A stretch of 64,000 nt of DNA from assembly GCF_009914755.1 (NCBI RefSeq), contig NC_060930.1; one strand, 5' to 3'. Position numbers and translations under genes: made by a program. Below are positions 52,667 through 56,007 of the stretch, one piece after another. This DNA is from the human T2T-CHM13v2.0 reference genome, Homo sapiens. The notes below the pieces were generated by a model. It was not told the DNA's origin, ran no database searches, and saw nothing but the letters and a program-made list of their open reading frames with translations. Numbering within the stretch: position 1 is the stretch's first letter; every line of letters begins with the position of its first letter.

Positions 52667-52818
52667 ATACTTGCTACATTCATCTTGTGTGGCCTCCATG
52701 ATCTCCTCATTTTCCTTAGTGTTCAGCAGCTCCTCAGGCAGCACCATATTAATGAGGCACAGGACTTTTGTTGGGTAGCTGCCTATCTGCACCTGGGAGC
52801 ACATCTGGCATGGCACTT
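52667..52818 (-). pseudogene. U2AF2: U2AF2 (U2AF65) UHM-domain coding fragment
   Basis: [44 protein letters not shown] versus U2AF65 [44 protein letters not shown]. Confidence 0.92.
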
Positions 52819-53303
52819 AAAAAAAATGTTTAATGAGGAAATTCATCTAAAAAAATATGAAACTGCCACAGACAGTAAGAGAGCGATGGGGCCATGAGGC
52901 TGGAAATGGGTCAGGGGAAGACTACAGAAGAAAGAATCAACTACATTAAGTAAACATGGAGAAGATCAGAGAGGTCCAGGGGCAAGAGAAATGGAACCAT
53001 GATCCTGGTAAGGATAAGGATAAGGCATTGAGGGCCAGACAACAAAATTCAAAATAGTTTGGCTGTAAAATATAAACACACTATGTTTCTAGTGTGCAGA
53101 AGGAGAGGAGGAAGGGGATATAAGGGAGAAGGAGAGGCTGTTTTAGAAGATATGGGGGTCCTATTCTGTCCTTCTGTGTACCCTATCCCTATCCCAACCC
53201 TTTCCTTCTGTGCCTGTGTGGGTGCATGTGTCTGTGTGGTCCTGTGTGTACACTTCCCCAGTTCCCTCCCTTCCCTGACCCTCCCCAAATCCCTTCCTTT
53301 CAC
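52819..53303 (-). pseudogene. mRNA 3'UTR end, probably U2AF2
   Basis: The minus strand ends ...CTGTGGCAGTTTCATATT...CTCATTAAACATTT (ATTAAA at 52829-52834). It resembles my recollection of the U2AF2 terminal UTR (GCCAAACTATTTTGAATTTTGTTGTC) and needs BLAST confirmation. Confidence 0.65.
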
Positions 53304-53472
53304 TTTTTTTTTTTTTCTGAGACAGTTTTGATCTGTCACCCAGGCTGGAGTGCAGTGGCACAATATCTGCTCACTGCAACCTCCGCCTCCTGGGTTCAAG
53401 CGATTCTCCTGCTTCAGCCTCCCAAGTAGTTGGGACTACAGGTGCACACCACCACATCCCCACCAACTTAAT
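53304..53472 (-). mobile_element. Alu right arm only (AluS-like), no evident TSD
   Basis: PolyT followed by antisense right-arm sequence ending at the linker. Confidence 0.88.
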
Positions 53473-53790
53473 TGTTTTTATTTTTTTCTGTTAAAGAAAT
53501 GCTTTATTAACACAAACACACACAAGACAATCTATAAAGAACTAAAATATTTAAATATCTGTGTCATAGTAAACAGGTGCTAATTCAACATCCAGGGTTG
53601 GTGAAATGCTTGAAAGAGACTACAGTGGATTGGACTCTCATGGTGGAGGCAGCATCTTCACAAGTGAAGGGGAACCCAGCTACAACAGCTTTTAAATTCC
53701 CTCTCCTCTTCAAGGATCATAAGAGGCATTCCATTCAAAGGAATGTGCAATCTGGTGCTCTTCAACAAGGTGAAAACTCTCAAAATCCAA
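53473..53790 (-). pseudogene. PTTG1: PTTG1 (securin) processed 3' fragment
   Basis: LDFESFHLVEEHQIAH / PLNGMPLMILEEERE / PVYYDTDI* versus securin [32 protein letters not shown]...PVCCDIDI*. Stop at 53551-53553, AATAAA at 53503-53508, degenerate polyA. Confidence 0.92.
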
Positions 53791-55706
53791 TTATTCCTGT
53801 TCTCTGATGATATGATCTTATAACTAGAAAAATCTAAAGACCCCACCACAAAACTCTTAGATTTGATAAATGAATTCAGTCAATATCAGAATATAAAATC
53901 AATGTACAAAAATCATTAGCATTTCTGTACACTAATAATGATCTAGCTGACAACCAAATGAAGAAACTAATCCCATTTAGAATAGCTACAAAAAATTAAA
54001 ATAACTATAAATATATTTAACCAAGGAGGTGAATCTCTACAAGGAAAACTGCAAAACACTGATGAGAGAAATTGTAGTTGACAGAGAAAAATGAAAAAAC
54101 ATTCCATGCTCAGGGATTAGAAGAATAAAAATCATAAAAATGACCATGCTCCCCAAAGTAATCTATGGATTCAATGCAATTCCTAGCAAAATATCAATGT
54201 CATTTTCCACAGAATTAGAAAAAACTATTCTAAAATTCATACGGAATCAGAAAAAAAAAAAAGCTGGAGACCTCACACTGCCTAAGTTCAAATTATACCA
54301 TAAGGCTATAGTAATCAAAACAGCATGATACTATAACAACAGACTCATAGATCAATGGAATAGAATAGAGAATCCAGCAATAAAGCCACACATTTACAGC
54401 CAACTGATCTTTCACAAAGCCAACAAAAACATACACTGGGGAAAGGACACGTTTTTCAATAAAGTGCTGGGAAAGAAAAATTGAATCACCATATGCAAAA
54501 GAATGAAACTAGACCCACATTTCTCACCATATATACAAGAATCGACTCAAGGTGGATTACATATTTAATTGTAAGACATGGAACTATGAAAATACTAGAA
54601 GGACACTAAGAATAAACTCTAGTAAACATTGGTCTAAGCAAATAATTTATTACTAAGACCTCAAAAGCACAGGCAAAAGAACAAAAATAGACAAATGGGA
54701 GTTAATTAAATGACAAAGCGTCTGCACAACAAAAGAAATAATCAACAGAGTAAACAGAATCTGCGAATAAAATAAAATATTTGCAAACTATGCATCTGAC
54801 AAGGGACTAATATCCAGACTTTAAAAGGAACTCAAGAACAGCAACAAAAACCAAATAATCCCATTAAAAATGGAGAAATGACATGAATAGACATTTTTAA
54901 AAAGAAGACAAAGAAATAGCCAACAGGCATACTCAGAAAACTAATCATCAGAGAAATGCAAATTGAAACCACAATGAGGCCTCAACTTATATCAGTGAGA
55001 ATGGCTATCAATAAAAAGACAAAAAGTAAAAGATATTGGCAAGGATGTGGAGAGTAGGAAACTCATATGTCATTGTTGGGAATGTAAACTGATACAACCT
55101 CTATGGAAAAATCTATAAAGATTTCTCAACTAAAAATAGAACTACCATAGCCAGCATAGATAGCCAGCAATCTTACTACTGGCTATATCCCCAAAGGAAA
55201 ATAAATCCTTATATCAAAAATACATCTTAATCTGTATGTTTATTATAGTGCTATTCACAATTGCAAAGATATGGATTCAGCCTAAGTGTCTATCAACATA
55301 TGATTAGATTAAGAAAATGTTATATATACATATATACATATACATATGTATATGTATACATGTATAGATCATGAATATGCATGTGATTTATATGTATATA
55401 TACATATAGATACACACCTATATACATATATACACAGATATATATATATATCATATATTCTCACTCATAAGTGAGATTAAATAATGTGTATACATGGATG
55501 TAGAGTGTGGAGTGACAGATAATAGAGACTCCGAAGGATGAGGGAGAGGAGAGAGAGTGGATGATGAGTAATTACTAAATGGGCATAATGTACATTAATC
55601 AAGTGATGGATATACTAAAAACCCTGACTTCACCACTACACAATGTATGCATGTAACAAAATTACACTTGTATCCCCAAGTTTATACTAAATAAATAAAT
55701 AAAAAT
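53788..55706 (+). mobile_element. 5'-truncated L1PB4-like element with a (TA)-rich insert
   Basis: Starts at the RT (F)xDDM motif. The 3'UTR reads ggatgatgag...ccctgacttcaccact...catgtaacaaaattacacttgta, followed by an A-rich tail. Confidence 0.85.
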
Positions 55707-55710
55707 TTGG

Positions 55711-56007
55711 GGCCAGTCACAATAACTTACACCTGTAATCCCAGCACTTTAGGAGGCTGAGGCAGGTGGATCGCTGGAGCACAGGAGTTTGAGACCAGCT
55801 TGGGCAACACGATGAAATCCTGTGTCTACTAAAAATACAAAAAATTAGCTGGACATGATGGTACGCATGCAGTCCTAGCTATTCGAGAGGCTGAAGTGGG
55901 AAAATCACCTGAGCCTAGGAAGTTAATGCTGCAGAGAACTGTGATCACTCCAGTCCACTCCAGCCTGGTCAACGGGAGTGAGACCCAGTGTAAAAAAAAA
56001 AAAAAAA
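55711..56007 (+). mobile_element. AluJ
   Basis: GGATCGCTGGAGCACAGGAG and CTGAGCCTAGGAAGT J-type features, polyA. Confidence 0.88.

What the first reader, a model, noticed from the sequence alone, without database searches (positions are those of the whole stretch)
52667..56007. Compound retro-insert: cDNA pieces of several different RNAs stitched together at one Tigger2 site
Seen: Tigger2 stops at ~52666 and resumes at ~56008. Between these points, with no intervening unique DNA, the minus strand reads PTTG1 3' end+polyA > Alu right arm+polyA > mRNA 3'UTR end > U2AF2 coding fragment. This chain is joined head-to-head at ~53788 (CAA overlap) to a plus-strand 5'-truncated L1PB4. No piece shows its own TSD. 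Established: L1 ORF2p makes two-part chimeras by template switching and inversions by twin priming. Inference: one break was primed from both ends, with L1 RNA on one side and serial jumps between RNA 3' ends on the other. That would give a 4-5 template chimera capturing two host mRNAs. Caveat: the half Alu looks AluS-like and may be a later arrival, and the AluJ probably entered the L1 tail separately.
Basis: partly seen in the sequence, partly recalled or inferred. Interest (0 to 1): 0.85.

Follow-up and report, generated by a model that had tools for sequence, protein, structure and literature searches.

The report
Multi-RNA mosaic retro-insertion beside old L1
An ancient jumping-gene (L1) insertion on human chromosome 6 carries, joined head-to-head to it, cDNA scraps of the securin (PTTG1) and U2AF2 messenger RNAs, most likely a fossil of one messy insertion of a kind now also seen in cell experiments.

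Summary
A Tigger-type DNA transposon (46248-58245) is split at one point. Between 52668 and 56007 lie, on the minus strand, the PTTG1 3' end with its A-tail, an Alu right arm with A13, a 3'UTR piece and a U2AF2 coding piece. These meet a plus-strand 5'-truncated L1 head-to-head.

The main correction is that the unnamed "mRNA 3'UTR end" is U2AF2's own 3'UTR (79% to chr19, about 160 nt past the stop codon). So there are two host mRNAs, and U2AF2 is used twice in permuted order.

A comparison with 28 other genomic Tigger copies shows that no Tigger base was lost. The flanks overlap by 3-10 bp at an AT-rich site. The PTTG1/L1 junction has a 5-nt microhomology, not CAA. No piece has its own target-site duplication (TSD) above chance. 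Divergences agree at about 15% for the L1, the U2AF2 coding piece and Tigger, and 14% for the half Alu.

Best reading (about 0.6): one L1 event. L1 RNA was copied from one DNA end. From the other end a second reverse transcription started inside U2AF2 mRNA, jumped to its 3' end and then to the PTTG1 tail, perhaps through an Alu. The full AluJ-like Alu is probably a later arrival.

Comparable events are already in print from cell experiments and comparative genomics. This is a new member of a known kind, of moderate interest. The orthologue test could not be run.

The parts
46248..46611 (+). Left part of the host Tigger-type DNA transposon (5' terminal inverted repeat at 46248). Its last 9 nt, AACTGTAAT, are the left TSD copy of the younger L1.
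   Evidence: 28 of 29 fetched genomic copies align to it. It is 15.0% from their majority over 354 sites.
46612..52651 (-). Context only: a younger full-length L1 inserted 16 bp left of the compound insert, with TSD AACTGTAAT at 46603-46611 and 52652-52660.
   Evidence: (sequence read).
52652..52667 (+). Last 16 nt of the left Tigger part. 52658-52667 (AATAATTGTA) is the candidate left TSD copy of the compound insert.
   Evidence: It aligns to the copies' majority ...ACTGTAATAATTTTGTA, directly before GCCACC.
52668..52818 (-). U2AF2 (U2AF65) coding fragment from inside one exon (RRM3/UHM start). It has no poly(A) and no splice junction.
   Evidence: 119/151 identical to chr19:58765396-58765546. 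pN 0.157.
52819..53303 (-). Last ~470-485 nt of the U2AF2 3'UTR. It ends 9-12 nt after the ATTAAA signal and carries no A-tail. The firm alignment is 52820-53293.
   Evidence: 377/476 identical to chr19:58771211-58771679.
53304..53316 (-). A13 tail of the half Alu (T13 on the plus strand).
   Evidence: (sequence read).
53317..53474 (-). Alu right arm, 5'-truncated in the A-rich linker, of S/Y type.
   Evidence: 20/141 mismatches to the majority of 10 window Alus.
53475..53487 (-). A7TA5 run. It is the PTTG1 poly(A) tail and can equally be aligned to the Alu linker, giving an A-rich overlap of up to 13 nt.
53487..53787 (-). PTTG1 (securin) cDNA: the last two exons joined, residues 123-202 plus the 3'UTR up to the poly(A) site. 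Its 5' end falls on an exon boundary.
   Evidence: 132/160 and 112/138 identical to chr5 exons.
53783..53787 (.). Inversion junction. AAATC is shared by the PTTG1 complement and the L1 (AAGTC in the PTTG1 parent, and AAGTC or a near variant in L1 relatives).
   Evidence: 13 of 29 L1 relatives cover the site.
53783..55687 (+). 5'-truncated old L1, from the reverse-transcriptase active-site region of ORF2 to the 3' end. It contains a later TA/CA microsatellite at 55321-55460.
   Evidence: 15.3% from the majority of 29 relatives over 746 sites.
55688..55710 (+). L1 A-rich tail (TAAATAAATAAATAAAAA) followed by TTTGG. TTTGG is neither L1 nor Alu and may be the remnant of the right TSD copy.
55711..56007 (+). 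Full-length, more diverged Alu lacking the S/Y-type block (AluJ-like), with A16. It is flanked by AAAAATT on both sides and was probably a separate, later insertion.
56008..58245 (+). Right part of the Tigger-type element up to its 3' terminal inverted repeat. It resumes at the copies' majority GTAGCCACC...
   Evidence: 15.3% from the majority over 373 sites.
56057..56074 (+). 18-mer in the Tigger flank that matches the U2AF2 CDS/3'UTR junction (52814-52831) at 17 of 18 bases. It may be a chance match or a scar of templated repair.
   Evidence: Such a pair arose in 6 of 300 simulations.

Best explanation
One L1-mediated insertion made the mosaic from 52668 to about 55710, at an AT-rich endonuclease-type site in the Tigger element.

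Inferred order of events:
1. The bottom strand was nicked and primed reverse transcription of an L1 RNA from its A-tail. This is the plus-strand L1, copied back only as far as the ORF2 reverse-transcriptase region.
2. The top-strand 3' end (...AATAATTGTA) primed a second reverse transcription inside a U2AF2 mRNA.
3. After about 150 nt that strand jumped to the 3' end of U2AF2 mRNA, most simply the same molecule, and copied about 480 nt.
4. It then jumped to a poly(A) tail, either PTTG1 mRNA directly or first an Alu RNA (left at its A-rich linker) and then PTTG1.
5. It copied about 300 nt of spliced PTTG1.
6. The two cDNA ends annealed through AAGTC and were sealed.

Shown: the identities, order, orientation and ends of the pieces; the intact target; the microhomology; and the equal divergence. 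Inferred: that this was a single event, the direction of synthesis, and RNA rather than free cDNA as the template. The full Alu at 55711-56007 probably arrived later. The mosaic has no sign of function.
For: 1. Single intact site. Against 28 other genomic copies, the left flank ends at ...TTGTA. The right flank aligns without gaps from GTAGCC... So no Tigger base is missing, and 3-10 bp are present on both sides.
2. The pieces abut with no unique DNA between them. No piece has flank repeats above chance (4-6 nt against a null mode of 5 nt).
3. The 151-nt U2AF2 coding piece has no A-tail and lies inside one exon. It cannot be a canonical retrocopy, but it fits internal priming.
4. Polarity. PTTG1 ends exactly at its parent's poly(A) site plus an A-run, the Alu ends in A13, and the U2AF2 UTR piece ends 9-12 nt after ATTAAA. 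Each is joined to the 5' break point of the next piece.
5. PTTG1 is spliced, so RNA was the source.
6. A 5-nt microhomology lies at the inversion junction.
7. Equal decay. L1 15.3% (746 sites), Tigger 15.0-15.3%, U2AF2 coding pN 0.157, half Alu 14.2%.
8. Both U2AF2 pieces occur nowhere else in the genome except the parent gene.
9. Precedent. [quoted passage not shown]
Against: - The outer TSD is weak: 3 bases certain (GTA/TTA), and at most about 10 AT-rich bases that run into A-runs.
- The half Alu is of S/Y type. Its non-CpG divergence is 10.7% (13/122), lower than the 15% of the L1, though only by about 1.5 standard deviations. Its A/T-run flanks could hide a TSD, so it may be a later insertion into the PTTG1 tail.
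- The U2AF2 UTR/CDS junction has no A-tail and little or no microhomology, and the permuted order is unusual.
- At about 15% decay, TSDs of separate old insertions could have faded.
- No orthologous loci could be examined.
Confidence: 0.6

Rival explanations
1. Same single event, but the half Alu is not part of it. An AluS-type element, 5'-truncated in its linker, later inserted into the PTTG1 A-tail. In that case the original chain was PTTG1 > U2AF2 3'UTR > U2AF2 CDS. This is a sub-variant of the best explanation, not exclusive of it.
For: - The S/Y-type block is shared with 10 of 10 other window Alus and absent from the full Alu.
- Non-CpG divergence is 10.7%, against 15% for the L1.
- It is flanked by T-runs (T13 and T5AT7) that are good endonuclease targets and could hide a TSD. 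The longest flank repeat is TTTTTT.
Against: - All-site divergence of 14.2% equals that of the oldest S-type Alus in the window and of the L1.
- Truncation in the A-rich linker is exactly where a T-ended cDNA could re-prime on a poly(A) tail.
- Alu/L1 co-insertions involving AluS are reported, as 33% of 452 cases (PMC13174262, section 12).
Confidence: 0.5
2. Stepwise nesting. The L1, the PTTG1 retrocopy and the U2AF2 fragments arrived in separate retrotransposition events that happened to land side by side.
For: - The site is a repeatedly used AT-rich spot. A younger L1 and a full Alu also landed within 20 bp of the Tigger break point.
- Old TSDs can decay at about 15% divergence.
Against: - There are no piece-specific flank repeats above chance.
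- No Tigger or L1 sequence lies between the pieces.
- The U2AF2 pieces lack A-tails and are permuted.
- The head-to-head join has a 5-nt microhomology.
- The divergences cannot be told apart.
Confidence: 0.12
3. End-joining capture. A double-strand break, made by L1 or otherwise, was patched by ligation of several free cDNA fragments or a circularised or concatenated U2AF2 cDNA, rather than by continuous template switching.
For: - The U2AF2 UTR-end to CDS order is what a circular or tandem cDNA broken in the missing ~370 nt would give.
- The Tigger/U2AF2 and UTR/CDS junctions are blunt or nearly so.
- PMC11702581 (section 7) infers that ends extended by reverse transcription can take up further cDNA products.
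Against: - All four minus-strand pieces share one orientation, which is 1 in 8 if ligation were random.
- Three of the four start at an RNA 3' end.
- The target lost no bases and keeps a short overlap at an AT-rich site. By recall, this is not typical of endonuclease-independent insertions.
Confidence: 0.18
4. A pre-formed chimeric RNA, made by RNA ligation or trans-splicing of PTTG1, Alu and U2AF2 fragments, was reverse-transcribed in one pass.
For: RNA ligation before retrotransposition is established for U6/L1 chimeras (PMC6789731, seen only as a search listing and abstract start).
Against: - None of the three internal joins shows a splice site, although the outer 5' end of the PTTG1 piece falls on an exon boundary.
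- Internal A-tails are retained.
- The 3'-most piece has no A-tail to prime on.
- It would need three ligations.
Confidence: 0.05

Closest known systems
Twin priming (5'-inverted L1 insertions; Ostertag and Kazazian 2001, as cited and described in PMC2912911 and PMC11702581)
   Same: Two oppositely oriented cDNA arms meet 5' end to 5' end. There is an A-tail on the primary side, the target is preserved with a short duplication, and the inversion junction has microhomology.
   Different: The inverted arm is not L1. It is made of U2AF2 (twice), PTTG1 and perhaps Alu RNA.
De novo non-canonical L1-mediated insertions in L1-induced cells (Mendez-Dorantes et al. 2024 preprint, PMC11702581, section 7)
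   Same: [quoted passage not shown]
   Different: Those are somatic events in culture with two to four stretches. This one is an old, fixed germline event with four or five stretches from three or four RNA species.
Antisense mRNA/L1 and Alu/L1 chimeric insertions from comparative genomics (Law and Burns 2026, PMC13174262)
   Same: An L1 with an adjacent sequence that appears to be of the same age. The authors suggest twin priming for antisense partners.
   Different: Their 17 mRNA/lncRNA cases are mostly sense-oriented first exons on near-full-length L1s. PTTG1 and U2AF2 do not occur in the four supplement files held. This L1 is truncated to 1.9 kb, and the partner is a multi-piece chain.
Bipartite and tripartite template-switch chimeric retrogenes (Buzdin group; Gogvadze et al. 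2007, PMC2104539)
   Same: Directly fused cDNA copies in one orientation, where each 5' part is the 3'-terminal copy of an RNA joined to a 5'-truncated copy of the next.
   Different: The chain here lacks a terminal poly(A), starts by internal priming, uses one mRNA twice in permuted order, and is inverted against an L1.

Membership tests
Twin-primed (5'-inverted) L1 insertion | Two arms in opposite orientation joined 5' end to 5' end | tested here: met
   Minus-strand chain 52668-53787 against the plus-strand L1 from 53783.
Twin-primed (5'-inverted) L1 insertion | Microhomology or small indel at the inversion junction | tested here: met
   AAATC in the window. The PTTG1 parent has AAGTC, and the 13 L1 relatives that cover the site have AAGTC or a near variant.
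Twin-primed (5'-inverted) L1 insertion | TSD around the whole insert at an endonuclease-type site | tested here: inconclusive
   No target bases are lost. The overlap is 3-10 bp (AATAATTGTA against an A-run plus TTA), and the site ...TGT/AATAAT is AT-rich. The longest exact repeat is only 5 nt.
Twin-primed (5'-inverted) L1 insertion | Both arms copied from the same L1 RNA | tested here: not met
   The inverted arm is U2AF2, PTTG1 and Alu. It works like twin priming but is the different-template variant.
Template-switch chimeric retrogene (Buzdin type) | Parts directly fused in the same transcriptional orientation, with the 3' end of one RNA joined to the 5'-truncated next | tested here: met
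   for all three internal joins of the minus-strand chain.
Template-switch chimeric retrogene (Buzdin type) | Poly(A) at the 3' end of the chimera next to the TSD | tested here: not met
   The 3'-most piece (U2AF2 CDS) abuts Tigger with no A-run.
Canonical processed pseudogene | Spliced, poly(A)-tailed copy with its own TSD | tested here: not met
   PTTG1 is spliced and tailed but has no TSD of its own. The U2AF2 pieces have no tail, no splice junction and no TSD.
Endonuclease-independent L1 insertion / break capture | No TSD, loss of target bases, atypical target (features recalled, not from a call) | tested here: not met
   The target is intact with a short overlap at an AT-rich site, and the L1 keeps an A-rich tail.
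AluS-type for the half Alu | Right-arm block that separates S/Y from J. The assignment of the block to subfamilies is recalled. | tested here: met
   The block ...GGCGGAGGTTGCAGTGAGC... or a close variant of it is shared with the 10 other window Alus. The full Alu at 55711 has a different block. No repeat library was available to name the subfamily.
   There is no Dfam or RepeatMasker. Only family-level support exists: inverted terminal repeats and 838 candidate relatives for Tigger, 13275 candidates for the L1. Pfam on the decayed frames gave 0 hits.

The most novel reading that the evidence does not exclude
The whole block is one event in which the second reverse-transcription strand visited five templates in turn. 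These were U2AF2 mRNA internally, about 13 nt of the Tigger flank itself (the 17/18 match at 56057-56074), the 3' end of the same U2AF2 mRNA, an Alu RNA, and PTTG1 mRNA. It was then sealed to the L1 cDNA. That would make it the most complex natural single-event L1 mosaic on record. It would also be a germline fossil showing that templated repair synthesis and RNA template jumping alternate on one DNA end.
Probability: 0.2. Interest if true: 0.55.

Novelty: new member of a known kind. Interest (0 to 1): 0.4.

Why it matters
The locus is a clean, fixed germline example of something so far documented mainly in L1-induced cultured cells. In those cells the DNA end opposite the primary L1 reverse transcription is itself extended by reverse transcription, on unrelated cellular RNAs and with several template jumps.

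It shows that such events entered the primate germline tens of millions of years ago. It also shows that short tail-less gene fragments, such as the 151-nt U2AF2 piece, can be L1 by-products that standard retrocopy criteria (poly(A), own TSD) would miss or mis-annotate.

The re-use of one mRNA in permuted order suggests that the same RNA molecule stays tethered to the insertion complex.

There is no sign that the mosaic has a function. It lies in an intron of a predicted lncRNA, according to the hub's annotation.

Tried and rejected
- Pfam on the three PTTG1 frames, read through with X at stops, gave 0 families. The PDB sequence search then identified securin.
- Pfam on three frames each of the Tigger ORF region and the L1 ORF2 region gave 0 families at E<=0.01. 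Family identity therefore rests on DNA similarity.
- Idea: the 480-nt piece is the U2AF2 intron in front of the coding exon, because of a T-run followed by AAG at the junction. Rejected. The exon continues upstream of the break point, and the piece maps downstream of the stop codon.
- Idea: a splice junction lies inside the U2AF2 coding piece, because the first search aligned only 126 nt. Rejected. The whole 151 nt lies in one exon.
- Idea: the half Alu was copied from an intronic Alu of U2AF2 or PTTG1 pre-mRNA. Rejected. Only 3-10 shared non-consensus bases were found, and by my own inspection of the alignment (not counted) they lie mainly at CpG-type sites.
- Rfam hits to microRNA families in the TA/CA microsatellite and in the Alus are all far below gathering scores, and are chance or repeat-derived.
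- Kojima 2010 (PMC2912911, passages only) did not contain the mixed-RNA 'hybrid insertions' I had recalled.
- The locus was not found under the names PTTG1 or U2AF2, or under my estimated hg38 coordinates, in the four held supplement files of PMC13174262. Three PDF supplements could not be read. The coordinate estimate is my own arithmetic and may be off.
- A full-text search for PTTG1, U2AF2, LINE-1, retrocopy and pseudogene found no paper that holds both gene names with these terms.
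Full report
**Anatomy**

The window is T2T-CHM13 chr6:81654001-81718000 (hub note). A Tigger-type DNA transposon with inverted termini runs from 46248 to 58245. It is interrupted twice.

- A young full-length L1 on the minus strand occupies 46612-52651. It is flanked by AACTGTAAT on both sides.
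- Sixteen bases further right the compound insert begins.

**Identity of the pieces**

- U2AF2 coding piece. The minus strand of 52668-52816 translates without stops to 50 residues. These match the start of the third RNA-recognition domain of U2AF65 in solved structures (E 1.9e-12). At DNA level 52668-52818 is 119/151 identical to chr19:58765396-58765546. Translation of the chr19 locus shows that this stretch lies wholly inside one exon, which continues on both sides.
The own-genome search gave exactly two matches, itself and chr19:58771218-58771679 (79%, E 1.9e-104). A pairwise alignment extends this to 377/476 over window 53293-52820. The last coding exon of U2AF65 lies at chr19:58770918-58771049 (E 1.2e-27 to U2AF65 chains) and its stop codon at 58771050-58771052. 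The piece therefore starts about 160 nt into the U2AF2 3'UTR. It ends 9-12 nt after an ATTAAA signal. It is the same mRNA as the coding piece, not a third one. On the minus strand the UTR end stands upstream of the coding piece. The order is permuted, about 370 nt of mRNA between the two are missing, and there is no A-run at their join.
- PTTG1. 53487-53787 (minus) matches securin residues 123-202 (E 5.9e-14). It also matches two chr5 exons, 132/160 and 112/138, with the 734-nt intron removed. It stops exactly where the parent's transcript ends (AATAAA plus 16 nt) and is followed by A7TA5.
- The half Alu. It comprises a right arm (53317-53474) and A13 (53304-53316).
- The L1. Its similarity starts at 53783, at 69% over 1627 nt to the window's full-length L1. 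It runs to about 55687, followed by an A-rich tail.
- The full Alu. A more diverged full-length Alu with A16 occupies 55711-56007.

**The target site**

I fetched 29 other genomic copies of this Tigger family (40 of 838 candidates were scored). 28 of them also matched the left flank, and L033 was dropped because it did not. I aligned those 28 across the break point.

- Their majority reads ...ACTGTAATAATTTTGTAGCCACCTCCTGTTGC...
- The window's left flank ends ...AACTGTAATAATTGTA and is followed by the U2AF2 complement TACTTGC...
- After the A16 run, the right flank TTACCTACCGACTATTGC aligns without gaps to GTAGCCACCTCCTGTTGC.

So no Tigger base was lost. The two flanks share at least GTA/TTA, and at most about ten AT-rich bases that vanish into A-runs. 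The site (...TGT/AATAAT...) is of the AT-rich kind that the L1 endonuclease prefers; that preference is recalled.

Between the L1 tail and the full Alu lie five bases, TTTGG. They are neither L1 (23 of 29 relatives end ...AAATTTATACAAATAAAAA or a close variant) nor Alu. They resemble the Tigger ...TTTTGTAG. Together with AAAAATT on both sides of that Alu (7 nt; a repeat this long or longer in 154 of 2000 random placements), this suggests that the full Alu entered later, at the old right-hand duplication.

**Junctions**

- Tigger/U2AF2 coding piece: a direct abutment (GTA|TAC).
- U2AF2 coding piece/UTR end: 0-2 nt of ambiguity and no tail.
- UTR start/Alu A13: the UTR probably reaches the A-run, with AA shared.
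- Alu/PTTG1 tail: the A7TA5 run can be aligned both as the PTTG1 tail and as the Alu mid-linker.
- PTTG1/L1: the PTTG1 complement ends ...CTCAAAGTC. The 13 of 29 L1 relatives that cover the site mostly read ...GGAAGTCAAATTATC..., with variants. AAGTC is therefore common to both, and is AAATC in the window today.

The PTTG1 piece also ends exactly on an exon boundary of the parent. I take that as coincidence.

A scan of the flanks of every piece and combination found no exact direct repeat longer than 6 nt for the mRNA pieces or the L1. The null distribution from 2000 random placements peaks at 5 nt.

**Ages**

| Piece | Measure | Value |
|---|---|---|
| L1 | difference from the majority of 29 relatives, 746 sites | 15.3% |
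| Tigger flanks | difference from the majority of relatives | 15.0% and 15.3% |
| U2AF2 coding piece | non-synonymous differences per site | 0.157 |
| U2AF2 coding piece | synonymous differences per site | 0.46 |
| U2AF2 and PTTG1 pieces | raw identity to today's parents | 79-82.5% |
| Half Alu | mismatches to the majority of 10 window Alus | 20/141 (14.2%) |
| Half Alu | same, outside CpG | 13/122 (10.7%) |

- The majority of best hits leans towards the query, so the L1 and Tigger values are lower bounds.
- The U2AF2 non-synonymous figure approximates the pseudogene's own decay, because the parental protein is (by recall) almost invariant.
- The raw identities to today's parents include parental change.
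- The half Alu is among the three or four most diverged of the S-type copies in the window. It is not clearly younger than the L1; the gap is about 1.5 standard deviations.
- It does carry the S/Y-type block seen in the 10 other window Alus.

The refutation criterion 'clearly different ages' is therefore not met for PTTG1, U2AF2 and the L1. It stays open for the half Alu.

**Mechanism**

The structure is what twin priming predicts if the second primer uses other RNAs.

- The top-strand 3' end left by second-strand cleavage (...AATAATTGTA) is exactly where the U2AF2 complement starts.
- Reading rightwards, each new piece begins at an RNA 3' end, and each is left at an internal point.
- The last cDNA end is sealed to the L1 cDNA by a 5-nt microhomology.
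- The use of U2AF2 twice argues for a jump within one tethered molecule.

A mirror-image reading would have the L1 cDNA strand continue on free first-strand cDNAs, running off each 5' end. It fits the same joins and cannot be excluded.

Ligation of loose cDNAs is less likely. All four pieces share one orientation, and three begin at RNA 3' ends.

**Comparison with the literature**

- PMC11702581 (preprint; passages and section 7 read) reports, after induced L1 expression:
  - nine insertions from two transcripts, with those in opposite orientation ascribed to the two DNA ends being extended on different templates;
  - extra cDNAs at an inversion junction;
  - three insertions with sequence templated from DNA near the site.
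- PMC13174262 (outline, sections 12 and 13, passages and Table S5 part 1 read) catalogues L1 chimeras by comparative genomics and suggests twin priming for antisense partners. PTTG1 and U2AF2 are not in its four held supplement files. Three PDF supplements could not be read.
- PMC2104539 (passages read) documents bi- and tripartite same-orientation chimeras.

The locus is thus a more elaborate, old germline member of a known class.

**Open oddity**

The 18 bases across the U2AF2 coding/UTR join (52814-52831) recur at 17 of 18 positions in the Tigger flank, 50 bp right of the break (56057-56074). Such a pair arose in 6 of 300 first-order Markov simulations. All 18 bases are also explained by the two U2AF2 pieces, with one mismatch and one extra A. 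So this may be chance, or a short stretch copied from the flank between two jumps.

**Verdict**

- The single-event interpretation is plausible (about 0.6) but not proven without orthologues.
- This is a new member of a known kind, interest 0.4.

Noticed in passing
46612-52651 (minus), flanks 46603-46611 and 52652-52660: A young full-length L1 (about 6.04 kb), with 5' end ...GGGAGGAGCCAAGATGGCCG on the minus strand. It is flanked by the 9-bp duplication AACTGTAAT (possibly up to 13 bp with one mismatch) and sits 16 bp left of the old compound insert. With the full Alu at 55711, three separate L1-driven insertions used the same ~20-bp AT-rich stretch of this Tigger.
   Followed up: partly
52814-52831 and 56057-56074: A 17-of-18 direct repeat between the U2AF2 CDS/3'UTR join and the Tigger flank 50 bp right of the break. 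Such a pair arose in 6 of 300 simulations. The Tigger copy departs from its family majority at this spot. Chance, short-patch conversion and templated repair synthesis all remain possible.
   Followed up: partly
about 46611 / 52652-52660: Relative to 28 other copies, this Tigger lacks about 20 bp (GTACATACTGTACTACTGTA in the majority) between two ACTGTA repeats, directly left of the insertion point. The deletion predates the young L1, because that L1's TSD spans it.
   Followed up: no
53787: The 5' end of the PTTG1 piece coincides with the 5' boundary of the parent's penultimate exon (the parent has ...tgtaacag just upstream). The same bases form the microhomology with the L1, so this is probably coincidence.
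   Followed up: partly
55321-55460: A TA/CA-rich microsatellite has expanded inside the old L1. It gives sub-threshold Rfam hits to mir-297, mir-466, mir-3149 and mir-1277 families (bits 22-41 against gathering scores of 80-100). These are repeat-derived look-alikes, not genes.
   Followed up: yes
L012:4340-5630 (chr19:58766340-58767630): The last intron of U2AF2 holds a long tandem array that stays open in all three forward frames (repeating ...PAVRAPCCPCTLLS... in translation). It is a GC-rich minisatellite.
   Followed up: no
L006 (chr8:67193098-67193402), L007 (chr4:37929876-37930190), L008 (chr11:63021722-63022029), L011 (chr14:65290771-65291031): Four other PTTG1-like copies cover both exons in one stretch (67-79% identity to the window piece). 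They are presumably the known PTTG retrogenes and pseudogenes. The window piece is closer to the chr5 parent (81-83%) than to any of them.
   Followed up: no
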